From the IMG/VR virus record IMGVR_UViG_3300025682_000004: a stretch of DNA of 64,000 bases. One strand, given 5' to 3'. The translations under genes and the position numbers were made by a program. Position 1 is the first letter of the stretch. The number at the start of each line of letters is the position of its first letter. A model generated the notes under the pieces. The model did no database searches and was not told the DNA's origin. It saw nothing but the letters and a program-made list of their open reading frames with translations. Of the stretch, positions 1,861-49,749 are shown piece after piece. This DNA is from a virus (taxonomy: Duplodnaviria; Heunggongvirae; Uroviricota; Caudoviricetes).

Positions 1861-1944
1861 AGTTCTTATATCAAATAAGTAATTGTATAATATTTTTTGT
1901 ATTAATTTTGCTAACTCCCCATTTATATAAAGAACGTTTTTTTG

Positions 1945-2030
1945 TAGCGGTGATGGGAATCGAACCCATTTAAACCCAATAGGGACTCCGTGCTTATGAG
2001 GCAGGCGAGATACCATTTCTCCACACCGCA
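1945..2030 (-). tRNA. tRNA gene, class II-like (long variable arm), apparent anticodon CAU
   Basis: Folded by hand: 6-bp acceptor gcggtg/caccgc with a 1:72 mismatch, D arm gaga-aatggta-tctc, anticodon arm cctgc-ctcataa-gcacg, about 19-nt variable region, T arm atggg-ttcgatt-cccat. The combination of CAU with a long extra arm is unusual, so the assignment is uncertain. Confidence 0.45.
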
Positions 2031-2063
2031 ATTTCAAAAAACAGAAAATTTGTTTGTTATTTT

Positions 2064-2136
2064 TTTACAATGTTGGAATCGAACCAACAATATTTCATAT
2101 TGTGAATGAACACTCTATCCATTGAGTTAATTGTAC
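2064..2136 (-). tRNA. tRNA gene, 73 nt with canonical numbering; loop gives anticodon ACA with C at position 33
   Basis: Hand fold gives acceptor tacaat/attgta, U8, D arm actc-aatggata-gagt, anticodon arm ttcat-tcacaat-atgaa, 5-nt variable loop, T arm gttgg-ttcgatt-ccaac. The odd anticodon loop suggests a non-standard tRNA or pseudogene. Confidence 0.5.
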
Positions 2137-41176: not shown

Positions 41177-42748
41177 ATGAGTGATATAAAAAAAACATCA
41201 ATTCTTAAAGAAGCATTATCTGATTATGATGAAATCATGAATGCTGCTAAAATTGTTGCGAATAAAAAATTAGAAGAAGAATATTCAAAACGATTTAATG
41301 AAATTATAAATGAAGAATTAAATAAAAATAAAACAAAAAAATCCTATAAAAAAATGGATGATAATAAAGAATCTGATGAAGATGATGAAATTAATCAAAA
41401 AGAAGAATCTGTTATGAAAAAGAATGAAAAAGAAACTAAAAAAGTTAAAAAAACCACAGATGAATTAGAAAAACAAAAAGTGGTTGATGAAGATGTAAAA
41501 ATTACTGATACTGTTGGTGATAGTAACCCATATGAGAAAAAAGTTAACGAAAATAACGTTTCTGAAGAAAAAAATAAAGAAATTATGGGCGATGTTGAAT
41601 CTAATACACCAAATATTGCAACTAAAAAAAGCAAAGATGGTGATACATTCAAAGAAAAAACACCAAAAAAAGAAAACATCAAGGAAGAATTTGACATAAC
41701 AGAATTGGATGTTAATCGAGTGGGTAATGCATTAGAATGTGCAAATGAAAGTGATGAATTTCAAATTGATGATGACGAAACATTTAGTTTAAATGATATT
41801 GAAAAAGAAATTAATGCATTAAATTCTGAAGATGAATTAGATGACTTAAATTCTGATGAAGAATTAGATGACTTAAATTCTGATGAAGAATTAGAAAATT
41901 CAGATTCTAATGAAATCAAACCAACATCTAATAATTTGAATGATAAACTATATGAATTGCGTAATCAATTAGATGAAATTATTCAAAATTTTGATTCTAA
42001 TATTCAAGAAGACGATGAACTTCAAGATATTGAAATTGATGATGAATTAGATAATCAACTTCAAGATATTGAAATTGATGATGAATTAGATAATCAACTT
42101 CAAGAAATTGAAATTACTGATGATGATATCGATGCAGCACTTGCTGATAATGAAATCGATGAAACATTAGGAATGTCATATCCCAATAAAAGGGCTACAA
42201 CTGGAAATATTCCTGATAAAGAATATCAAACACAAGGAAATGTTCAACGTATGCGTTTTTCTATGAGGGAATCTGAAAGAAGGATTAATGGTTTAATTAA
42301 TGAGAATAAAAAACTCACAAAAAAATTAAATGAAAATAAAAAATACAAACAAACCGTATCCAAATTATTAGAACAATATAAAACCGCACTTGAAAAATAT
42401 CGAAATCAATTGAAAGAAATGGCAACATTTAATACCAATTTAGCACACGTCAACAACTTATTGGTAAACGAAAATCTTGCCCTTACACAAAATGATAAAA
42501 TTAATATTATCAACAACTTTAAAAAAATTGATAATATTGCTGAGTCACAGAAAAAGTATAACGAATTACTTGTAGAAATGCAAAAAAAACCAAATACTTT
42601 AACTGAAAGCATTGAAACGAAAGTGTCTGCTTCAATACAATCGTCTTCAAAGCAAAAACTTGACGAAGTTGTTGAAAAAACTGCATATGAAAATAATCAA
42701 CATATCGAAAAAATTAAAAAGTTGATTAATTACGGAAGCAAAAAATAA
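41177..42748 (+). CDS. acidic prohead scaffold-like protein (gp22-like role) with tandem repeats
   Basis: 523 aa, highly D/E-rich with coiled-coil character. Located between the protease and major capsid genes as in T4. Confidence 0.5.
   Translation: MSDIKKTSILKEALSDYDEIMNAAKIVANKKLEEEYSKRFNEIINEELNKNKTKKSYKKMDDNKESDEDDEINQKEESVMKKNEKETKKVKKTTDELEKQKVVDEDVKITDTVGDSNPYEKKVNENNVSEEKNKEIMGDVESNTPNIATKKSKDGDTFKEKTPKKENIKEEFDITELDVNRVGNALECANESDEFQIDDDETFSLNDIEKEINALNSEDELDDLNSDEELDDLNSDEELENSDSNEIKPTSNNLNDKLYELRNQLDEIIQNFDSNIQEDDELQDIEIDDELDNQLQDIEIDDELDNQLQEIEITDDDIDAALADNEIDETLGMSYPNKRATTGNIPDKEYQTQGNVQRMRFSMRESERRINGLINENKKLTKKLNENKKYKQTVSKLLEQYKTALEKYRNQLKEMATFNTNLAHVNNLLVNENLALTQNDKINIINNFKKIDNIAESQKKYNELLVEMQKKPNTLTESIETKVSASIQSSSKQKLDEVVEKTAYENNQHIEKIKKLINYGSKK
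41820..41905 (+). repeat. about 30-nt tandem coding repeat (SEDELDDLN x2 to 3)
   Basis: aattctgatgaagaattagatgacttaaat is repeated. Confidence 0.7.
42020..42135 (+). repeat. 39-nt tandem coding repeat (LQDIEIDDELDNQ x2 to 3)
   Basis: cttcaagatattgaaattgatgatgaattagataatcaa is repeated. Confidence 0.7.
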
Positions 42749-42774: not shown

Positions 42775-44457
42775 ATGGGATTTTTAATGGAAAGTGGCGA
42801 AGTTGGTAACATTGGTATTAAACAACTTCGTGAACAAAGAGAAATTACGACAAACCGTTGGGAAAAAATTGGATTACTTGAAGGATTAGATGGCAATATT
42901 AAAGAAAATTGCGCTCAATTATTCGAAAACCAATTATCTCATATGCTTAAAGAATCTTCTGATTCTACATCAAGCGGTCAATTTGAAACAGTTGCATTCC
43001 CTGTTATTCGTAGGGTGTTTGCAAAATTATTAGCAAACGATATTGTTTCAGTACAAGCACTTAACTTACCTTTAGGTAGATTATATTTTATCAATCCAAA
43101 GGCTAGTACACGTGTACAAGATAGTACACATACAACAACACTTGGTAATATTCATACATCACCTGATGGTGCATATGGAAATGCTGCTGAAAAAACATCA
43201 ACAAGTTCAACTAATTTTGAAACTCGTTCATTATACGATGCATTCTATGCAACTGAATATAATGATGAAGGTACTTCATTATTCGATTTATCAAAAGGTA
43301 GTATTGATAGTAAATCAATTACTGGTTTAACTGCTAAAGGTTATACAGCAGGAGATAAATTCGTTACTCTTGAAATCACAGGATTTACTACTGATAATGC
43401 AGGTAAATTGGTAGGTCCTGCTGGCGCACCAATGGATACCGAATCATTCCTTGCTGGATTAAAAGTAACAGCAAATAAAACTTTTACAGCACCAAGTGGT
43501 TATACAAGTGAAAATATTGCAAGTGGAAATCCAATACCATTTAACGTAAAAGTTCAAAAATATGGACAGGGTATTGTGGATAAAAATGGTAAAATTGTTG
43601 TTTTACTTGATGTTCAATATCCTGGTAAAGATGGTTATCATGCATTAACCATTCCAACTGGAACTATTTATACTGCAACATATAGAACATATAGCGACCT
43701 TGAACAAGATTCAAGAATGGCAGAAGTAACATTCGTTCTTGATTATGTTACTGTAAGTGTTGAAACTCGTAAAATGAGAGCAATGTGGACACCTGAATTA
43801 GCACAAGACGTTTCTGCATTCCATAATATTGATGCTGAAGCAGAATTAACTGCATTGTTATCAGAACAAATGGCTGCTGAAATTGACCGTGAAATATTAC
43901 GTGACTTAAGACGTGGTGCTGCATGGACTGCTCGTTGGGATTATAACGGATTAAGAAAAGGAACTAATACTTATTATGGTGTACAAAAAGACTGGAATCA
44001 AACGTTAATTACTAAAATTAACCAAATTTCAGCACAAATTAATAAGTCAACATTACGTGGTGGTGCATCATGGATAGTTGTATCTCCTGAAGTTTCTGCT
44101 GTTTTTGATGACTTAGAATATTTCCACGTTTCAAATGCTTCACCTGAACAAGATAAGTATAATATGGGTATTGAAAAAATTGGTACAATAGGTGGACGTT
44201 ATGTTGTTTACCGTGACCCATATTCAGCACCTAATACTGTTCTTATTGGACATAAAGGAACTAGCATATTGGAAACCGGCTATATTTATGCACCATATAT
44301 ACCTATGCAATTAACACCTGTAATGTATAATCCATTTGATTTTACACCAATTCGTGGTATTTTAACACGTTATGCTAAGAAAATGGTTCTAAACCGTTAC
44401 TATGGTAAAATCTTATGTGATGGATTAACAACATTTGGTGTTGGTGATTTATCCTAG
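42775..44457 (+). CDS. major capsid protein (T4 gp23-like)
   Basis: ETVAFPVIRRVFAKLLANDIVSVQALNLPLGRLYF ~ gp23 GPAVMGMVRRAIPNLIAFDICGVQPMNSPTGQVFAL; RKMRAMWTPELAQDVSAFHNIDAEAEL ~ KSRQLKAAYSIELAQDLRAVHGMDADAEL. Confidence 0.8.
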   Translation: MGFLMESGEVGNIGIKQLREQREITTNRWEKIGLLEGLDGNIKENCAQLFENQLSHMLKESSDSTSSGQFETVAFPVIRRVFAKLLANDIVSVQALNLPLGRLYFINPKASTRVQDSTHTTTLGNIHTSPDGAYGNAAEKTSTSSTNFETRSLYDAFYATEYNDEGTSLFDLSKGSIDSKSITGLTAKGYTAGDKFVTLEITGFTTDNAGKLVGPAGAPMDTESFLAGLKVTANKTFTAPSGYTSENIASGNPIPFNVKVQKYGQGIVDKNGKIVVLLDVQYPGKDGYHALTIPTGTIYTATYRTYSDLEQDSRMAEVTFVLDYVTVSVETRKMRAMWTPELAQDVSAFHNIDAEAELTALLSEQMAAEIDREILRDLRRGAAWTARWDYNGLRKGTNTYYGVQKDWNQTLITKINQISAQINKSTLRGGASWIVVSPEVSAVFDDLEYFHVSNASPEQDKYNMGIEKIGTIGGRYVVYRDPYSAPNTVLIGHKGTSILETGYIYAPYIPMQLTPVMYNPFDFTPIRGILTRYAKKMVLNRYYGKILCDGLTTFGVGDLS

Positions 44458-44477
44458 TAGGTACTTAACTTTATTAA

Positions 44478-44510
44478 AGGGGGATGTTAAACACATCCCT
44501 TTTTTTATTT
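44478..44510 (+). terminator. rho-independent terminator after the capsid gene
   Basis: 7-bp GC-rich stem gggatgt/acatccc (44481-44487 / 44493-44499) with loop taaac, followed by ttttttta. Confidence 0.7.
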
Positions 44511-44545
44511 CCAAAATAATACTATTTTTGTAAAAATGTTTTTCT

Positions 44546-46003
44546 ATGGAAGCACACCAACATAAAATTAGAATAAAAAAATCAAAAGAAGAAATATTAG
44601 ATTTTAATTATAAAAACATTTCTTTAGATAATACAGAAATTAAATTAATTGATAAAAACACTGCAAGTAAAATTATAATAGAATATGAATGGTTAAAAAC
44701 AATGCCATATATTGTTAAATATTGTTTTGGTATATATTTTAATACAGAAAATGGTCAAAAACTAGGTGGTGTTTTAGTTTTTAGTAATGATTATACAGAA
44801 AATACTGGTGTTTGGGATAAATATGGATTTACAAATAAAATTTTATTATTAAGCAGGGGTGTTTGTTTATGGTGGACACCAAAAAATACAGCATCTTTTT
44901 TTATTTCTAGGGTTTGTAAATGGTTAAAAAATAATACAAAATATAGAATAATAACAGCAACTGTTGACCCAGCAGCAGGTGAAATCGGAACAATTTATCA
45001 ATCATTAAATTGGTTATATGTTGGTGTTATGTCTGGTAATTATTCCAATAATAAAGAAACAAAAAGATTTTCAGTATTAATTGATGGTAAATTAAGATAT
45101 AGTAGATGGGTTAGAAATAAATTGGGTACGATGAAAAAAAATGTTATTTTAAAACACTATCCCAATGCAATATTTTTACCACAATATAGAAAACATAGAT
45201 ATTTTTATTTTATAGACACACCAAGAAATAATAAAAAACATAAAACATCTATAAATCATTTAATATTACCATATCCTAAAAGAAATGATGAAATTATTGG
45301 CGTTATTTATAAAATAAAAAACAAAATAAACAACAAATTATATATTGGACAAACAATTCGTTCAATAAATGAAAAAATATTAGAATATAAAAATGGTTTG
45401 GGTAATGATTATATTAATAATGCATTCAATAAGTATGGTTGGGATAATTTTGAATTTACAATAATTGATACGGCAAAAACAATTCAAGAACTAAACAATA
45501 AAGAAATTAAATATATTAGTGATTATAAATCAAACCAAAAAGAATTTGGTTATAATATTGAAGGTGGTGGTAAAAATATAATACCAACAAAAGAAACTTT
45601 AGATAAAATGTCTATTTCTCATTTAGGTATTAAACAATCTAAAGAATGGATTAATAAAAGAATTTCAAAAGCAGGTAGTAATGATGCAAAAAAATACGGT
45701 AGAAAAAAAACAAAGCAAGATAAATTAATTTTAAGTAAAAATTCTTCTAAATATTGGTTAGGTAAAAACCATACAGAAGAAACTAAACAAAAAATTAGTA
45801 AAACAAAAAAACAAATTGGATTGTCTGAAAAACAAAAAGAAATAATTTGCAAAAAGGTATTTAAAGTTAATTTAAAAACTAATGAAATTATTGAATTTGA
45901 ATCAACAAAAAAGGCGAGTGTTTTTGAAAATGTTAATCAATCCACAATATCAAGATGGTGTAAAAATGAAAAAAGAGTAAATGGTTATTTATGGAAAAAT
46001 TAA
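44546..46003 (+). CDS. GIY-YIG homing-endonuclease-like protein with unusual N-terminal extra domain and C-terminal NUMOD-type DNA-binding repeats
   Basis: GIY-YIG core at about residues 250-330: GVIYKIKNKINNKLYIGQT...R...E...N. C-terminal repeats SISHLGIKQSKEWINK and WLGKNHTEETKQKISK resemble NUMOD3. The first about 240 aa form an unrecognised domain. Confidence 0.55.
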   Translation: MEAHQHKIRIKKSKEEILDFNYKNISLDNTEIKLIDKNTASKIIIEYEWLKTMPYIVKYCFGIYFNTENGQKLGGVLVFSNDYTENTGVWDKYGFTNKILLLSRGVCLWWTPKNTASFFISRVCKWLKNNTKYRIITATVDPAAGEIGTIYQSLNWLYVGVMSGNYSNNKETKRFSVLIDGKLRYSRWVRNKLGTMKKNVILKHYPNAIFLPQYRKHRYFYFIDTPRNNKKHKTSINHLILPYPKRNDEIIGVIYKIKNKINNKLYIGQTIRSINEKILEYKNGLGNDYINNAFNKYGWDNFEFTIIDTAKTIQELNNKEIKYISDYKSNQKEFGYNIEGGGKNIIPTKETLDKMSISHLGIKQSKEWINKRISKAGSNDAKKYGRKKTKQDKLILSKNSSKYWLGKNHTEETKQKISKTKKQIGLSEKQKEIICKKVFKVNLKTNEIIEFESTKKASVFENVNQSTISRWCKNEKRVNGYLWKN

Positions 46004-46293
46004 AATATTAGTGGTTTGAATATATAAGCAGGTTTACCTTATAAAAATTATTAATTTAACTAATATAATTTAATATCTCTTTATAATAAACATTTAGATA
46101 ATATTTTTAGAGTATATTTTTAATATTTCAAGAAATTTATTTTTAATATCATTTACATTAGATTCAATTAGTTTTAAGAATTTCTCTAACTTCATCAGAT
46201 GAATTCTTATATACTTCTTTTAAGGTTTTATTTGTTTCTTCCATCATTTAATTATTTTTATAATATACGATAAATAATTTAAATTGTTACAAA

Positions 46294-46566
46294 TTATTCA
46301 ACAAAGTCAATTGTTTTAAAATTTTCCAATTCTAACGATAATTTTTCATAAATATCAATCAACTCATTTAATTTTTCATGTATTTTATACATAATATTAG
46401 CAATTTGGTTAATATTTATATTTAATAAAAAGACATCATTATAAAAATCTATCCAATTATTATTTATTTTATATTGACCAATAAATGTTAAATTTTTTTC
46501 TATGGGATTAAATTTAACTAATATTCTTCTATCACTATATTTTTCAAAATTTACTTTCCATTCCAT
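46294..46566 (-). CDS. hypothetical protein
   Basis: 90-aa ORF. Confidence 0.3.
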   Translation of the reverse strand: MEWKVNFEKYSDRRILVKFNPIEKNLTFIGQYKINNNWIDFYNDVFLLNININQIANIMYKIHEKLNELIDIYEKLSLELENFKTIDFVE

Positions 46567-46578
46567 AAATTTAAAATT

Positions 46579-49500
46579 TTAAGAGATATCTGTCCAATTT
46601 CTATCAAAGATTAATTCATTTTTTGCTCTTGTATATGCAACATATTCTAAATTTTTTTCTTGTAAAAATTCCCAATTTTTTGTTGTTTTCATTGGTAATA
46701 AATCTGGTCTTATTATAAAGACCCTATTTGCTTCAAGACCCTTTATTTTATGTATTGTACTTAAGCAAATTCCTTGAATTTCATCACTAAAAATTAAACC
46801 AATTTTATTTTTTAAATCAACAATACTATTTGATAATTTTGCTAAAAAAAGTAATGTTGTTACTTTATCTTCTAATGTAACATAACCACTATGTTCATTT
46901 GGGTTTAAAATACCTTCCTTTTTTAATTCTTTTCTATATTTAATTAATTCTCTATCCCAAAAAAGAATTAAATTGTCAATAGATTTAATATCACCAATTA
47001 ATTCAATTAACTGAACACCAATATCAGAACCTTTCACAATTGCTTTTTTTTCTTGTTCTAAAAATTCAAAAAATAATTTAATTAATGGTATTGTTGTTCT
47101 ACATAAAACAAAATCACCACTTTCTGCTTCTTTTAAAACATTACCATCCCTTACAATACCATCAGGTGCATTGGGTAGTGCTTTTATATCAGGTACAATT
47201 TCTTGTGCTTTTTTTATTACATTTTTTGAACATCTGAATGACGTTGATAATGGTAGTGTTTTAGTATTTGGGAATTTACTAAACCATTCAAACGCTTTTT
47301 CATCTGCTGCATTAAATCCATATATACAATTATGTGTTAATATATTATCAGCAACATATGTTTCGTATTTATCAATTTCTAAAGAATAAACTAAACCAGA
47401 ATATTTTTCATATTTTAATTCATATATTTTTTGAATGTTGTGCAAATTTGCATTTAAACTGCAAATTTGCATTAAATCTGGAATAATATTAATTGCATAT
47501 ATTTCTAAAAAATTTTGATTATAATCCATATTCCAATTAGAATTCCATATCGGGTAGTTTGAATTTTTATTAAAATCATTAAATATTTTATCTTTATTTG
47601 CTAAATAATAATTAGCATCTTTATATGCATAATACAAAGAATAGTACGATTTTAAAATCCAAATTTTATTAACATCACTTTTATTCTTAAAAATTTTAAA
47701 AAAATCAATCTCATTTCTTATTGTGAATATACGTATGTGTTGAGTTTCATCCATCAATTCAAACAAACACAATACAAATTGTAATTGTTTTGTTTTTTTT
47801 ATTTTAACCAAACATTTATGTTCTGGTGTATATTTAGATTCACATCCTCTTGAAATTATTTTTATTAAATTTCCATTATAATACCTACAACCAATATTGT
47901 TAATTTTACTTTTAATAAAGGAATTACTTTTTCTATCGTAAGAAATAATTAAATCACCAACATTTAAATTTTCAATATCCTTTTCTGTATTATCATTCAT
48001 TAATATTTTTGTTCCTTTAGGTTGACATTGATAATAATCACCAACAGATATTAATCTACCTATATATTTACCAGTAGTTTTATCTTTTTTTATTAATTTT
48101 TCTACAATTTTTATTTGACAACGATTTAAATCTTGAACTTCATCAATAAAAATATAATCTTGAGGAAACATCCAAATACTACTATCTATTGCTGGTAAAT
48201 ATATCATATCAATAAAATCATAATTTTTTCTATCAATTGTTGATTCTTCTAATATTTTTAATATTCTTTTAATATCTTTATTTTCTTTAATTGGTATATT
48301 ATATTTTTCAGCAATATTTGGAATAAATTCTGAATTTGTTGTTAATGTTAATCTACATAAATTAACCATTTTTTTTATATTATTTAAATATAAAGAAATA
48401 TCATCGTTATCATCAAATTCATCGTTTAATTTCCAATTTTTTGATTTTGATTGTATTATTTTATCAATTTTAAATTCATCGAATTGTATTTTATCACCAT
48501 ATTTTCTTTTAATTGCAGACGTACCTAAACCATAAGTTGTATAACATCTAACATATTCGGGTAATTTTGTTTTTAATTCTTCTTGTATGTGTTTATTGAA
48601 CGCTAAAAACATAATAGATTTATCTTTAGGTAATAATTTTACTGCATCAACTATGGTTGAAGTATTGTGTGTGATTGTAAAATCACCCAATAAAAATCTA
48701 CCATTACCATTTAAAGTAAATCCAAAATATAAACCTTGTGATATAATATTTTCTTTTATTTTAAAAGAAAATAAATTATTGTAATTTGTTTTTTGTTTTC
48801 TTTTATATACTAAAGGTAATATGCTAGTATTTCCATTAATGTCAATTTTCCAAAAAATGTTATTTCGAAAAGAAAATATCTTTTTCTCTTTATATATAAA
48901 ACCTAAACTTTCACATAAAAATTTCAAATTAACTATTTTCCTTTTTGAAATTATTGTTAGTTTGGATGTCCTGTTTTTTTTATTATAATAAACATCAAAA
49001 ATACCCGCCAAGATTTTTTTTCTATTTTCAATAGAATTTATTAGATATTTGTCTGGTATTGATAAATGAATATTCTTTTTGTTTTTATCAATATTAAAAA
49101 TAATACACTTTTGAAAATCATCGGAATAAAAACCCTTTTCATATTTTTTATTTAAACAAACACTTGTTTTATTTAAAACAAAAAAAGAATTATCTTTTAA
49201 CTCCAACAATTTTTCTATTATTTTTCTTGTTAACCTAAAATCGACAAATAAAAATTGTTTTATATTATTTTTTAAATTATATCCTAACCATAATCCTAAT
49301 AAATATGGATTTATTTCTGTTTTATTTTCTTGAAATTCAACAATGGATTTTTTTAATTTAATATTTTTTAAATAACCATTCCATTTTTTTGAATATTTGA
49401 GTTCATTTAGTGGTGTATCTAACAAAATTTTAGAAATTTCATTGTAATGTGTAATTACATGAACATCATTACAAACCCAAGAATATCCTATTTCATTTTT

Positions 49501-49749
49501 TATTTTATATAGTTTACCATATCCAATATTTTTATTCAATACTTTACGAGGCGATGAATCATCACCCATTAAAAAATCACCAATTTTTATATCTTGAACC
49601 CTTTTTATTGTTCCATCATACATCAATACTGGTGTATCATATCCAAGACATTTACCTGTACCAGCATATGCTTTTATTAAAATATTTTCAGGTCTTTTTT
49701 TTGTAAATAAAAATATTCTTTCTTGTTCTTTTGTTGGTTTATTAATCAT
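46579..49749 (-). CDS. SF1 DNA helicase (Dda/UvrD-like) precursor containing two inteins
   Basis: Exteins join to give Walker A AYAGTGK|TSTIV and motif III VGDYYQ|CIYGFNAA (compare UvrD VGDDDQSIYGWRGA). The C-terminus has LSTIHKIKGLEAN and YVAYTRAKN (motifs V/VI). The predicted mature size is about 494 aa. Confidence 0.7.
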   Translation of the reverse strand: MINKPTKEQERIFLFTKKRPENILIKAYAGTGKCLGYDTPVLMYDGTIKRVQDIKIGDFLMGDDSSPRKVLNKNIGYGKLYKIKNEIGYSWVCNDVHVITHYNEISKILLDTPLNELKYSKKWNGYLKNIKLKKSIVEFQENKTEINPYLLGLWLGYNLKNNIKQFLFVDFRLTRKIIEKLLELKDNSFFVLNKTSVCLNKKYEKGFYSDDFQKCIIFNIDKNKKNIHLSIPDKYLINSIENRKKILAGIFDVYYNKKNRTSKLTIISKRKIVNLKFLCESLGFIYKEKKIFSFRNNIFWKIDINGNTSILPLVYKRKQKTNYNNLFSFKIKENIISQGLYFGFTLNGNGRFLLGDFTITHNTSTIVDAVKLLPKDKSIMFLAFNKHIQEELKTKLPEYVRCYTTYGLGTSAIKRKYGDKIQFDEFKIDKIIQSKSKNWKLNDEFDDNDDISLYLNNIKKMVNLCRLTLTTNSEFIPNIAEKYNIPIKENKDIKRILKILEESTIDRKNYDFIDMIYLPAIDSSIWMFPQDYIFIDEVQDLNRCQIKIVEKLIKKDKTTGKYIGRLISVGDYYQCQPKGTKILMNDNTEKDIENLNVGDLIISYDRKSNSFIKSKINNIGCRYYNGNLIKIISRGCESKYTPEHKCLVKIKKTKQLQFVLCLFELMDETQHIRIFTIRNEIDFFKIFKNKSDVNKIWILKSYYSLYYAYKDANYYLANKDKIFNDFNKNSNYPIWNSNWNMDYNQNFLEIYAINIIPDLMQICSLNANLHNIQKIYELKYEKYSGLVYSLEIDKYETYVADNILTHNCIYGFNAADEKAFEWFSKFPNTKTLPLSTSFRCSKNVIKKAQEIVPDIKALPNAPDGIVRDGNVLKEAESGDFVLCRTTIPLIKLFFEFLEQEKKAIVKGSDIGVQLIELIGDIKSIDNLILFWDRELIKYRKELKKEGILNPNEHSGYVTLEDKVTTLLFLAKLSNSIVDLKNKIGLIFSDEIQGICLSTIHKIKGLEANRVFIIRPDLLPMKTTKNWEFLQEKNLEYVAYTRAKNELIFDRNWTDIS
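47329..48027 (-). mobile_element. intein 2 (233 aa) inserted in helicase motif III
   Basis: Starts with Cys after VGDYYQ and ends ...ILTHN followed by Cys. Contains a Cys/His cluster (CRYY...GCESKYTPEHKC). Its endonuclease type is unclear. Confidence 0.55.
48664..49650 (-). mobile_element. intein 1 (329 aa) with LAGLIDADG-type homing endonuclease motifs, inserted in Walker A
   Basis: Starts with Cys after GTGK and ends ...ITHN followed by Thr. Internal blocks LLGLWLGYNL and ILAGIFDVYY resemble the two LAGLIDADG motifs. Confidence 0.65.

What the first reader, a model, noticed from the sequence alone, without database searches (positions are those of the whole stretch)
44546..46003. GIY-YIG nuclease with an extra about 240-aa N-terminal domain, directly after the major capsid gene
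Canonical GIY-YIG homing endonucleases (I-TevI, Seg proteins) place the catalytic domain at the extreme N-terminus and the DNA-binding modules C-terminal. Here the GIY-YIG core (GVIYKI...YIGQT) starts near residue 250 of a single uninterrupted ORF. It is followed by NUMOD3-like repeats. The N-terminal 240 aa (with CxxWW and VDPAAGEIGTIYQSLNW segments) match nothing I can place. This is either a new domain fusion or a frameshifted pair of genes. Its location just 3' of the gp23-like capsid gene and its terminator is a classic free-standing homing endonuclease site.
Basis: partly seen in the sequence, partly recalled or inferred. Interest (0 to 1): 0.55.

Follow-up and report, generated by a model that had tools for sequence, protein, structure and literature searches.

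The report
Mom DNA-modifier fused to homing endonuclease
One gene of an uncultivated jumbo phage joins a Mom-type DNA-base-modifying enzyme to a complete GIY-YIG homing endonuclease in a single protein; I found no description of this conserved combination in the searchable literature, it behaves like a mobile gene cassette, and it suggests that some selfish nucleases carry their own DNA-marking domain.

Summary
The ORF at 44546..46003 is real, uninterrupted and not a frameshift. The identical 485-aa protein is encoded on at least 21 independent contigs.

The "unplaceable" N-terminal 245 aa is a full-length Mom-family domain (Pfam PF25680, E 4e-26). The best structural match of the model is the phage Mu Mom crystal structure 8BV8. 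Six residues later a complete I-TevI/Seg-type GIY-YIG homing endonuclease begins.

More than 100 protein clusters (45-78% identity) share the fusion, with catalytic residues of both domains invariant. All examined copies lie in one slot, between the gp23-like capsid gene and a convergent UvrD helicase, in 200-360 kb AT-rich phages.

The slot is polymorphic and does not follow the capsid phylogeny. It can hold Mom-GIY, X-GIY, Vsr-like-nuclease-X, GIY alone, or none of these. This is how a free-standing homing endonuclease gene behaves.

Domain X is the C-terminal domain of Hef-like EDxHD homing endonucleases of cultured phages. Three independent tests show that it too is Mom-like.

Best reading: a mobile endonuclease cassette carrying a fused adenine-modifying domain. 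Whether the modification protects against the linked nuclease is untested. This is a new variant of a known kind.

The parts
42775..44457 (+). gp23-like major capsid protein gene. It is the conserved left flank of the variable slot.
   Evidence: 560-aa ORF. PF07068 Gp23 is recorded on the identical gene in other contigs. There are 162 relatives in IMG/VR; the 80 kept are 72-100% identical.
44476..44504 (+). Intrinsic terminator after the capsid gene.
   Evidence: 12-bp stem, 5-nt loop and a T-run. It is the only terminator-like site in 44300-46700, against 0.4 expected. A hairpin plus T-run stands at the same place in related loci.
44546..46003 (+). Single ORF encoding the 485-aa Mom-GIY-YIG fusion protein.
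   Evidence: The identical protein is on at least 21 contigs. More than 100 full-length homologous clusters exist. The AlphaFold2 model has mean pLDDT 83.6.
44546..45280 (+). Mom-family GNAT-like domain, residues 1-245. It includes an HTH-like insertion at about residues 170-215 and ends at PYPK, the counterpart of the natural C-terminus of Mu Mom.
   Evidence: Pfam PF25680 at 92 bits against a cut-off of 27, covering profile positions 3-202 of 202. PHROG 1384. Foldseek top match is 8BV8 Mu Mom, E 9e-11. R104, S117, D141 and Y151 correspond to Mu R111, S124, D149 and Y159; R104, S117 and Y151 are invariant and D141 at least 90% conserved.
45281..45298 (+). Six-residue junction (RNDEII). It contains no in-frame ATG, GTG or TTG.
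   Evidence: Read directly from the sequence. It is the least conserved stretch of the protein, with mean top-residue frequency 0.49.
45299..45580 (+). GIY-YIG catalytic domain, residues 252-345.
   Evidence: PF01541 and TIGR01453. Structural match to the I-TevI catalytic domain 1MK0/1LN0, TM 0.75. Y255, Y266, G268, E320 and N337 are invariant and R272 is nearly invariant.
45581..45835 (+). Flexible linker with NUMOD3-like repeats, residues 346-430.
   Evidence: NUMOD3 at 16.9-18.3 bits, below the 20.4 cut-off. It passes in homologues. pLDDT is 55-70 here.
45836..46000 (+). C-terminal strand plus helix-turn-helix module (NUMOD1-like), residues 431-485. This is the presumed DNA-binding anchor.
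   Evidence: PF07453 NUMOD1 is recorded on the homologues P0004 and P0064. pLDDT is about 90, with strands and two helices. The TIGR01453 match runs to residue 480.
45026..45030 (.). Site (GTTAT) where other assemblies of the same phage carry a 314-bp insertion that includes a second copy of these 5 bp. The insertion splits the Mom domain at codon 162.
   Evidence: L087-L090 and L006/L069 are about 99.7-100% identical to the window on both sides of the insertion.
44809..44812 (.). Site where another variant of the same phage carries a 1977-bp IS607-like element (Resolvase-type TnpA plus TnpB/OrfB_IS605) inside the Mom domain.
   Evidence: L091 and L092 have 100% identical flanks with a 4-bp overlap.
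46579..49749 (-). Convergent UvrD-type helicase gene, the conserved right flank of the slot. Here it carries two inteins.
   Evidence: Intein-free homologues of about 491-496 aa flank the slot in related phages.

Best explanation
Proposed identity: the ORF encodes one polypeptide that joins a Mom-type DNA adenine-N6 hypermodification domain to a complete I-TevI/Seg-type GIY-YIG homing endonuclease. The endonuclease part has the catalytic domain, a NUMOD3 linker and a C-terminal HTH. The gene is a free-standing mobile endonuclease cassette. It occupies the intergenic slot between the capsid gene and a convergent helicase gene in a clade of uncultivated, AT-rich phages of 200-360 kb.

Proposed working:
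- The cassette is expressed late, downstream of the capsid gene.
- The C-terminal modules anchor the protein on DNA.
- The GIY-YIG domain cuts the cassette-less allele of co-infecting relatives. Recombinational repair then copies the cassette in.
- The Mom domain modifies adenines in double-stranded phage DNA after replication. By analogy with Mu Mom it would use an aminoacyl-tRNA donor. This protects the carrier genome from host restriction and possibly from the linked nuclease.

Shown here: the architecture, conservation of both catalytic centres, inheritance of the fusion as a unit, and polymorphic occupancy that does not follow the capsid phylogeny.

Inferred: both enzymatic activities, late expression, the cleavage target, and any coupling between modification and cleavage.
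For: Domains:
- Mom domain: PF25680, E 4e-26, full-length match. Foldseek top match is 8BV8 Mu Mom.
- Endonuclease: TIGR01453 above its cut-off. The I-TevI catalytic domain is matched structurally.

Catalytic residues across 78-91 homologues:
- Mom residues R104, S117 and Y151 are invariant and D141 is at least 90% conserved.
- Nuclease residues Y255, Y266, E320 and N337 are invariant, and R272 is nearly so.

The fusion is real and old:
- The identical protein is on at least 21 contigs.
- More than 100 clusters at 45-78% identity share the architecture.
- GIY-domain clades match the type of N-terminal domain.
- Mom and GIY pairwise distances correlate at r = 0.66, the same as GIY against the C-terminal region at 0.67.

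Mobility:
- The slot is the same in all contexts read.
- Among 66 distinct loci, 16 hold Mom-GIY, 14 X-GIY, 10 nuclease-X, 7 GIY alone and 23 none of these.
- L038 (with the cassette) and L048 (without) share a capsid protein 97.3% identical. L061 and L065 share 98.9% but hold different cassettes.
- Cassette boundaries lie about 30 bp before the ATG and at the stop codon.
- In T4, segD lies between genes 23 and 24 (PMC2988022).

Mom chemistry: Silva et al. 2026, PMC13219725.
Against: - No activity has been measured.
- Two residues important in Mu Mom are not conserved. Mu H58 corresponds to E48, and the essential Mu R151 corresponds to A143. Mu R154 corresponds to an invariant E146. The donor or the product may therefore differ from Mu's.
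- No cleavage target was identified. The co-conversion test on the closest pair with and without the cassette was inconclusive.
- Identity among family members (45-78%) is lower than among capsid proteins (72-83%). This does not by itself separate frequent transfer from fast vertical evolution with loss.
- Disrupted alleles exist in the same phage population (314-bp and IS607-like insertions, both in the Mom half). An intact Mom domain is therefore dispensable, at least in the short term.
Confidence: 0.6

Rival explanations
1. Obligate coupling, in the manner of a single-chain restriction-modification enzyme. The Mom-like domain and the nuclease share the C-terminal DNA-binding module. The Mom domain marks the nuclease's own target in the carrier genome, giving self-immunity by modification. 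The nuclease then cuts only unmarked DNA: cassette-less relatives, competitors or the host. The fusion exists because the two activities must recognise the same sites.
For: - A nuclease joined to a Mom-like domain recurs in four combinations, using two unrelated nuclease folds: Mom-GIY, X-GIY, Vsr-like-X, and Vsr-like-Mom (P0140).
- The order is always DNA-binding module, then nuclease, then GNAT domain, or its mirror image.
- Phages with two cassettes keep one Mom-like domain per nuclease (L005, L007, L037).
- Campylobacter phages carry 9-11 Hef copies, each with its own X domain.
- The catalytic residues of both halves are conserved.
Against: - No target or modification motif is known.
- Stand-alone GIY proteins (L030, L079) and stand-alone Mom proteins (P0121, 68% identical) exist, so neither half strictly needs the other.
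- Alleles with a disrupted Mom half but an intact GIY reading frame persist in the population. That would be self-destructive if the modification were the only immunity.
Confidence: 0.2
2. The Mom-like domain is a non-catalytic accessory of the endonuclease. It would be a DNA-binding or base-flipping module recruited from Mom, as might also be the case in Hef-like enzymes, and it would make no modification.
For: - Mu H58 and the essential Mu R151 are replaced in this family.
- The dimerisation residue W48 of Mu does not appear to be conserved. This is my reading of the pairwise alignment.
- The related X domain of the X-GIY proteins lacks the essential serine.
Against: - The counterparts of Mu R111, S124 and Y159 are invariant and that of D149 is at least 90% conserved across the fusion family. 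The same residues are kept in its stand-alone Mom relatives, 69 of 70 sequences.
- The E48 and W49 state is shared with stand-alone Mom homologues, so it is not specific to the fusion.
- The Mom half is as constrained as the nuclease half, with mean p-distance 0.35 against 0.37.
Confidence: 0.1
3. A domesticated, non-homing weapon. The nuclease degrades host or competitor DNA and the Mom domain protects the phage's own DNA. This would be analogous to T4 endonuclease II working together with cytosine modification, a comparison from my own knowledge. No gene-drive behaviour is involved.
For: Both catalytic centres are conserved. The position matches late co-expression with the capsid gene.
Against: - The cassette is present in only about a quarter of close relatives and is replaced by other endonuclease cassettes in the same slot. 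This is the signature of selfish elements, not of a core function.
- The C-terminal I-TevI-type modules imply site-directed rather than bulk cleavage.
Confidence: 0.07
4. An artefact: a sequencing or assembly frameshift, or a chimera, that joins two separate genes.
For: Some gene callers report shorter products of 402 aa and 324 aa.
Against: Those shorter products come from alleles carrying insertions, not from frameshifts. The intact 485-aa protein is on at least 21 contigs from independent projects. More than 100 diverged homologues keep the same frame through the junction.
Confidence: 0.01

Closest known systems
Phage Mu Mom (PF25680; PDB 8BV8). It transfers glycine from glycyl-tRNA(Gly) to N6 of adenine in double-stranded DNA, giving N6-carbamoylmethyl-dA (Silva et al. 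2026, PMC13219725).
   Same: - Full-length homology of residues about 24-245, running to the C-terminal PYPK of Mu Mom.
- GNAT core plus an HTH-like insertion.
- The counterparts of Mu R111, S124, D149 and Y159 are conserved.
- Mu Mom is the best structural match.

   Different: - Here the domain is the N-terminal half of a nuclease.
- Mu H58 corresponds to E, Y59 to W, the essential R151 to A, and R154 to an invariant E.
- There is no com/Dam-type regulatory context.
- The donor, product and sequence motif are unknown.
I-TevI and the free-standing Seg endonucleases of T4 (GIY-YIG family, TIGR01453). segD lies between T4 genes 23 and 24.
   Same: - Catalytic residues, NUMOD3-type linker and C-terminal HTH.
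- Intergenic position after the capsid gene.
- Patchy distribution among relatives.
- No detectable intron.

   Different: The catalytic domain is not at the N-terminus. It starts at residue 252, behind a 245-aa enzyme domain, and has no start codon of its own. The family is unusually well conserved, with more than 100 intact clusters.
Hef-like EDxHD (Vsr-like) homing endonucleases: Hef of T-even phage U5, CP220 gp054, LIMEstone F-LimX and Proteus phage Pm5461 Hef-like.
   Same: They also combine a homing nuclease with a Mom-like GNAT domain (domain X). Evidence for X being Mom-like:
- hhalign probability 93.5%, E 2.3e-7.
- Pfam Mom hits recorded on matches to the X profile.
- The top structural match of the model is 8BV8.

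In the window's phage clade, X and Mom replace each other in front of the same GIY-YIG module and in the same slot.
   Different: The nuclease fold is Vsr-like PD-(D/E)XK rather than GIY-YIG. The GNAT domain is C-terminal rather than N-terminal. X is too diverged for Pfam Mom to detect in the copies I scanned. The window protein has no EDxHD domain.
Type IIG/IIC restriction-modification fusion enzymes such as MmeI. This comparison is from my own knowledge and is an analogy only.
   Same: A nuclease domain and a DNA-modifying domain lie in one chain together with DNA-recognition modules.
   Different: There is no sequence or fold relationship. The modification domain is a GNAT/Mom type rather than a SAM methyltransferase. 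No evidence exists that modification blocks cleavage. The genetic behaviour is that of a homing element in a phage, not a cellular defence system (no PADLOC hit).

Membership tests
Mom family (PF25680) | Match to the family profile above the curated cut-off, over the whole domain | tested here: met
   92.4 bits against a cut-off of 27.1, covering profile positions 3-202 of 202 at residues 31-245. PHROG 1384, E 1e-25.
Mom family (PF25680) | GNAT fold with the Mom-specific HTH-like insertion between the late strands (Silva et al. 2026) | tested here: met
   The AlphaFold2 model has pLDDT about 90 over this half. The Foldseek top match is 8BV8 (E 9e-11, target TM 0.67-0.72), followed by GNAT acetyltransferases. 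A predicted hairpin and two helices at residues 174-204 lie where the Mu insertion lies.
Mom family (PF25680) | Active-site residues R111, S124, D149 and Y159 (241-aa Mu numbering) | tested here: met
   They correspond to R104, S117, D141 and Y151, conserved in 69 of 70 Mom relatives. In 78 fusion proteins R104, S117 and Y151 are invariant and D141 is at least 90% conserved.
Mom family (PF25680) | Active-site residues H58, Y59 and the essential R151 | tested here: not met
   H58 corresponds to E48 (invariant), Y59 to W49, and R151 to A143. The neighbouring R154 corresponds to an invariant E146. The E48 state is shared with 66 of 70 of the closest Mom homologues, including stand-alone ones.
Mom family (PF25680) | Aminoacyl-tRNA-dependent modification of N6 of adenine in double-stranded DNA | not testable with these tools
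   This needs nucleoside LC-MS or in vitro assays.
GIY-YIG homing endonucleases of the I-TevI/Seg type (TIGR01453) | Family profile above the cut-off, and catalytic Tyr, Tyr, Arg, Glu and Asn | tested here: met
   TIGR01453 at 82 bits against 56. PF01541 at 28 bits against 22.6. Y255, Y266, R272, E320 and N337 are conserved. The I-TevI catalytic domain is matched with TM 0.75.
GIY-YIG homing endonucleases of the I-TevI/Seg type (TIGR01453) | C-terminal modular DNA-binding region (NUMOD3 repeats and a terminal HTH) | tested here: inconclusive
   NUMOD3 scores 16.9-18.3 bits in this protein, below the 20.4 cut-off. Homologues pass NUMOD3 and NUMOD1. The model shows a confident strand-plus-HTH module at residues 438-484.
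GIY-YIG homing endonucleases of the I-TevI/Seg type (TIGR01453) | Catalytic domain at the extreme N-terminus | tested here: not met
   The catalytic domain starts at residue 252. There is no in-frame start codon at the junction.
GIY-YIG homing endonucleases of the I-TevI/Seg type (TIGR01453) | Patchy presence at a fixed site between conserved genes (free-standing type) | tested here: met
   The slot is the same in all contexts read. 16 of 66 distinct loci carry the cassette and 23 carry none of these cassettes. Capsid proteins 97-99% identical flank different slot contents.
GIY-YIG homing endonucleases of the I-TevI/Seg type (TIGR01453) | Residence inside a group I intron (the intron-encoded type) | tested here: not met
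   No Rfam intron family reaches its gathering score anywhere in the window.
GIY-YIG homing endonucleases of the I-TevI/Seg type (TIGR01453) | Site-specific cleavage of the cassette-less allele and over-transmission in mixed infection | not testable with these tools
   The sliding-window identity test for co-conversion was inconclusive.
Hef-like EDxHD homing endonucleases | Vsr-like EDxHD nuclease domain | tested here: not met
   The window protein has no such domain. The domain is present in neighbouring cassette types of related loci (PF18741, weak).
Single-chain restriction-modification enzymes (Type IIG-like) | The modification made by the same chain blocks its own nuclease | not testable with these tools
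   This is an analogy only. There is no PADLOC match.

The most novel reading that the evidence does not exclude
Mom-like GNAT domains are built-in partners of at least two unrelated classes of phage homing endonuclease: this GIY-YIG family, and the widespread Hef-like EDxHD enzymes. They act in cis as a modification-based self-immunity or target-marking function. Such cassettes would be single-polypeptide selfish elements resembling restriction-modification systems, with a 'methylase equivalent' that is a DNA aminoacyl- or acyl-transferase, possibly tRNA-dependent.
Probability: 0.2. Interest if true: 0.85.

Novelty: new variant of a known kind. Interest (0 to 1): 0.62.

Why it matters
**For homing endonucleases.** These enzymes are thought to spare their own genome through differences at the target sequence. 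A nuclease carrying its own DNA-modifying domain would be a different solution. It would link the biology of selfish endonucleases to that of phage DNA hypermodification.

**For Mom.** The mechanism of Mom, a glycyl-tRNA-dependent modification of adenine, was reported in full only in 2026 (PMC13219725, after a 2023 preprint). That paper describes building its profile from 500 sequences containing only Mom domains, and a text search found no mention of fusions. This family has more than 100 intact members, altered active-site residues and a fused nuclease. It is a ready test case for new donors or products, and for whether modification and cleavage are coupled.

**For Hef-like endonucleases.** The C-terminal domain of Hef-like endonucleases has no stated function. 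These enzymes occur in Campylobacter phages, in Limestonevirus (Dickeya) and T4-like (Proteus) phages, and in jumbo Klebsiella and Pseudomonas phages. Showing that the domain is Mom-like gives a testable function to many cultured-phage genes.

Tried and rejected
- **Frameshift or assembly artefact: rejected.** The identical protein is on at least 21 contigs, and diverged homologues keep the reading frame.
- **Intron-encoded endonuclease: rejected.** The window has no Rfam intron hit at gathering score.
- **The 314-bp insertion in variant alleles as a group I intron: rejected.** It has no Rfam hit even at E of 1 or below. It includes a second copy of 5 bp of the window (GTTAT), and no choice of boundaries gives both a U before the 5' splice site and a terminal G.
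- **The 314-bp insertion as a miniature derivative of the IS607-like element found in another allele: no.** The two share no similarity, and neither has other copies in the window or the fetched loci.
- **Known defence-system protein: no PADLOC match**.
- **GenBank phages:** no record holds the two halves joined. None of the 127 matching records covers at least 80% of the query, and there is no nucleotide match.
- **A first hhalign of Mom against X, with low-diversity alignments, was inconclusive** (probability 2%). It became significant only with more diverse alignments.
- **A single-sequence search with the X domain found one protein**. A profile search was needed.
- **Co-conversion or target-site signature at the 3' end of the capsid gene:** identity dips in the last 300 nt or so in one pair but stays within the range of variation along the gene. 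Inconclusive.
- **Candidate promoter motif AWWATACTATT, 30 nt before the ATG:** 4 matches against 1.65 expected, not significant.
- **Sigma-70-type promoters:** no more than chance.
- **Missing Shine-Dalgarno sequence as evidence against translation: rejected.** None of the six neighbouring gene starts inspected has one, the capsid gene included.
Full report
**1.

- The window has one uninterrupted ORF at 44546..46003 on the + strand. It is 485 aa and starts with ATG.
- It lies 88 nt after the stop codon of a 560-aa gp23-like major capsid gene (42775..44457). PF07068 is recorded on the identical gene in other contigs.
- It also follows the only terminator-like hairpin in the region, at 44476-44504.
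- G+C content is about 22%, like the neighbouring genes.
- None of the six gene starts I inspected has a Shine-Dalgarno sequence, the capsid gene included. Its absence here says nothing against translation.

**2. It is not a frameshift**

- The exact 485-aa sequence is indexed in 58 blocks of the assembly collection. It was read on 21 contigs from ENA, NCBI and JGI, including contigs of 220 kb and 240 kb.
- A search of 5.8 billion proteins returned more than 100 clusters at 90% identity that cover 94-100% of the query at 45-78% identity. All carry the same two Pfam domains.
- The two shorter 100%-identical products, P0001 (402 aa) and P0045 (324 aa), are not frameshifts. They come from alleles of the same phage in which the gene is interrupted:
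  - by a 1977-bp IS607-like element at 44809-44812;
  - by a 314-bp insertion that includes a second copy of GTTAT (window 45026-45030).

**3. What the two halves are**

*N-terminal half: a Mom-family domain.*
- Residues 31-245 match Pfam PF25680 (Mom) over the whole profile: 3-202 of 202 positions, 92 bits against a cut-off of 27. They also match PHROG 1384, Mom-like DNA modification protein.
- An AlphaFold2 model built on 78 homologues has mean pLDDT 83.6, and about 90 over both enzyme domains.
- Its best match in the PDB is 8BV8, the crystal structure of phage Mu Mom (E 9e-11). GNAT acetyltransferases follow.
- The homology runs to the natural C-terminus of Mu Mom: PYPK in Mu, P242-K245 here.

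*C-terminal half: a complete GIY-YIG homing endonuclease.*
- After six residues (RNDEII), with no in-frame start codon, a complete I-TevI/Seg-type endonuclease begins. TIGR01453 scores 82 bits against 56, PF01541 also matches, and the I-TevI catalytic domain is matched at TM 0.75.
- A low-confidence linker with NUMOD3-like repeats follows, then a confident C-terminal strand-plus-HTH module.

**4. Are the catalytic centres intact?**

Silva et al. 2026 (PMC13219725) report the following for Mu Mom, using 241-aa numbering:
- It transfers glycine from Gly-tRNA(Gly) to N6 of adenine in double-stranded DNA.
- R111, S124 and R151 are essential.
- H58, Y59, Y159 and W48 are important.
- Residues 175-209 form an essential HTH-like insertion.

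Karambelkar et al. 2020 (PMC7261163) had found the same residues, numbered 10 lower.

Mapping through a 70-sequence alignment:

| Mu Mom residue | Window protein |
|---|---|
| R111 | R104 |
| S124 | S117 |
| D149 | D141 |
| Y159 | Y151 |
| H58 | E48 |
| Y59 | W49 |
| R151 | A143 |
| R154 | E146 |

- Of the first four, R104, S117 and Y151 are invariant and D141 is at least 90% conserved in 78 fusion proteins.
- The E48 state is shared with the closest stand-alone Mom homologues, in 66 of 70 sequences. It marks a Mom subfamily and is not a decay of the fused copy.
- In the nuclease, Y255, Y266, G268, E320 and N337 are invariant, and R272 is nearly so.
- Both halves are about equally constrained. 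Mean p-distance is 0.35 for Mom, 0.37 for GIY and 0.48 for the C-terminal region.

**5. Genomic behaviour**

- In all contexts read, the gene order is prohead protease, scaffold, gp23-like capsid, [slot], then a small ORF and a UvrD helicase on the other strand. The contigs are 200-360 kb.
- The capsid protein is only about 33% identical to that of any isolated phage. The clade is therefore uncultivated.
- I looked at 66 IMG/VR loci with distinct capsid sequences and enough downstream DNA. Some loci hold two cassettes:

| Slot content | Loci |
|---|---|
| Mom-GIY | 16 |
| X-GIY (X is a different N-terminal domain of about 255 aa) | 14 |
| Proteins of 540-650 aa with a weak Vsr-like nuclease match followed by X | 10 |
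| GIY-YIG endonuclease alone | 7 |
| Mom alone or truncated | 2 |
| None of these | 23 |

- Slot content does not follow the capsid tree. L038 (Mom-GIY) and L048 (empty) share a capsid protein 97.3% identical. L061 and L065 share 98.9% but hold different cassettes.
- Similarity between occupied and empty loci stops about 30 bp before the ATG and resumes at the stop codon.
- This is the pattern of free-standing homing endonuclease genes. In T4, segD lies between genes 23 and 24 (PMC2988022).
- The fusion is nevertheless inherited as a unit:
  - In a tree of GIY domains, the short Mom-GIY, long Mom-GIY and X-GIY proteins each form their own clade.
  - Mom and GIY distances correlate as well as GIY and C-terminal distances do (r = 0.66 against 0.67).
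- Decay states also exist, as expected for the life cycle of a homing endonuclease gene:
  - Mom with a truncated GIY domain (L076, 342 aa);
  - a split X / GIY pair (L067);
  - the insertion-disrupted alleles of the window's own phage.

**6. Domain X and the link to Hef**

- X matches the C-terminal part of PHROGs 3339 and 559, which are annotated as homing or HNH endonuclease.
- By tblastn it matches the C-terminal 200 aa or so of Hef-like EDxHD homing endonucleases of cultured phages:
  - Campylobacter phages CP220 and F375, with 9-11 copies per genome in the Fletchervirus records;
  - LIMEstone F-LimX;
  - Proteus phage Pm5461 Hef-like;
  - Klebsiella phage Muenster 'homing endonuclease EDxHD'.
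- Taylor et al. 2011 place Hef-type endonucleases in the Vsr-like EDxHD family (PMC3239194). They say nothing about this extra domain.
- Three independent tests show that X is Mom-like:
  1. Profile-profile comparison of Mom (70 sequences) against X plus cultured Hef (38 sequences) gives probability 93.5% and E 2.3e-7 over 175 columns. The NHxQG His lines up with Mu H58, the ELxR Arg with R111, the SFAD/SYAN position with D149 and the NxY Tyr with Y159. Cultured Hef proteins also keep the Ser (GGASKL) and the Arg of R151 (ANRR).
  2. In a profile search with X, many strong hits already carry a precomputed Pfam Mom (PF25680) annotation, often together with PF18741, a Vsr-like nuclease.
  3. An AlphaFold2 model of one such protein, P0308 (pLDDT 91.3), has 8BV8 Mu Mom as its top PDB match, E 3.5e-7.
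- A true Mom domain also occurs behind a Vsr-like nuclease (P0140), and fused to N6/N4 DNA methyltransferases (P0169, P0153, P0145).
- So Mom-like domains are joined to nucleases of two unrelated folds. In every case the nuclease lies between the DNA-binding modules and the GNAT domain.

**7. Interpretation**

*Firmly supported:*
- The protein is a real, conserved fusion of a Mom-family DNA-modification domain and a complete GIY-YIG homing endonuclease.
- The gene behaves as a mobile cassette in a known type of endonuclease slot.

*Inferred:*
- late expression;
- cleavage of cassette-less relatives, followed by copying of the cassette during repair;
- modification of adenines by the Mom half.

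*Open:* why the two are fused.
- Recurrent, independent fusions, and one Mom-like domain per nuclease in phages with two cassettes, argue for functional coupling. An example would be self-immunity by modification through a shared DNA-binding module.
- Against obligate coupling stand the stand-alone versions of each half (L030; P0121 at 68% identity) and the persisting alleles with a broken Mom half but an intact GIY frame.
- I put 0.6 on the composite-cassette reading and 0.2 on obligate coupling of the restriction-modification type.

**8. Novelty**

- Both domains belong to known families, so this is not categorically new.
- Databases hold these proteins only as 'GIY-YIG nuclease family protein' or 'group I intron endonuclease'.
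- No GenBank phage record holds the fusion.
- None of my full-text searches found a description of a Mom-endonuclease fusion or of the Mom-like nature of the Hef C-terminal domain.
- A text search of the 2026 Mom paper found no mention of fusions. The paper describes building its profile from 500 sequences containing only Mom domains.
- I rate it a new variant of a known kind, with moderately high interest.

Noticed in passing
window 45026-45030; L087-L090, L006, L069: Other assemblies of the same phage, about 99.7-100% identical on both sides, carry a 314-bp insertion that includes a second copy of GTTAT. It splits the Mom domain at codon 162 and encodes a 57-aa ORF on the minus strand. It matches no Rfam family, has no other copy in the window or the fetched loci, and is unrelated to the IS607-like element. 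Its nature is unknown.
   Followed up: partly
window 44809-44812; L091 128-2104, L092: A further variant of the same phage has a 1977-bp IS607-like element inserted in the Mom domain. It carries a Resolvase-type serine recombinase and a TnpB (OrfB_IS605 / Cas12f-like TNB). This would mean a TnpB-bearing IS is active in a jumbo-phage population.
   Followed up: partly
window 46579-49749 (-): The UvrD-type helicase is 1056 aa, against about 491 aa in relatives. It holds two inteins, at residues 34-362 (in the Walker A motif GTGK|C...HN|T) and 575-807 (YYQ|C...HN|C). The slot therefore lies next to another hotspot for mobile elements.
   Followed up: yes
related loci L012, L017, L028, L037, L061 and others; cultured phages L098-L101: The C-terminal domain of Hef-like EDxHD homing endonucleases is a diverged Mom-like GNAT domain. 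These enzymes occur in Campylobacter phages, LIMEstone F-LimX, Proteus phage Pm5461 and Klebsiella phage Muenster. Most of the Mom active-site residues are retained. I found no paper that says this.
   Followed up: yes
L005 6297-9485; L007 7770-10969: Some phages carry two Mom-GIY genes in tandem, a short type of about 485-494 aa and a long type of 566-584 aa. The long type has an extra C-terminal HTH plus a 'CKKT...KFKRK...WY' module. That module also forms the N-terminus of the 545-aa Vsr-like-X proteins.
   Followed up: partly
P0169, P0153, P0145 (representative search): Close Mom homologues are fused to N6/N4 DNA methyltransferase domains, giving two DNA-modifying domains in one chain.
   Followed up: no
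window 1944-2136 (-): Two adjacent tRNA genes. One is a tRNA-Cys called with the unusual anticodon ACA. The other is an 87-nt tRNA-Met, longer than usual.
   Followed up: no
L016 9488-9640, L020 5931-6083, L048 8366-8470 (minus strand): In several 'empty' loci, short fragments lie on the opposite strand downstream of the capsid gene. They resemble residues 14-64 of the capsid protein at 45-54% identity. They may be relics of rearrangement.
   Followed up: no
window 44505-44545 and the equivalent region of related loci: The genes inspected have no Shine-Dalgarno sequence. After the capsid terminator many related loci share a motif of the form TTGT..TGCATnAAnACATAT just before the ATG of whichever cassette is present. 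The window has TATTTTTG at about 44523-44530, which resembles the Bacteroidota -7 promoter consensus TAnnTTTG (from my own knowledge). This may be a hint about the host.
   Followed up: no
window 41177-42748 (+): The scaffold-like protein between the protease and the capsid gene contains acidic tandem repeats (SDEELDDLN three times; QDIEIDDELDNQL repeated).
   Followed up: no
L088 (NCBI GCA_035385645.1, DAOOKN010000002.1): The public assembly that holds this phage contig is labelled 'archaeon' (MAG TPA). The gene content is that of a tailed phage: gp23-like capsid, S77 prohead protease and a UvrD helicase. The bin label is probably wrong.
   Followed up: no
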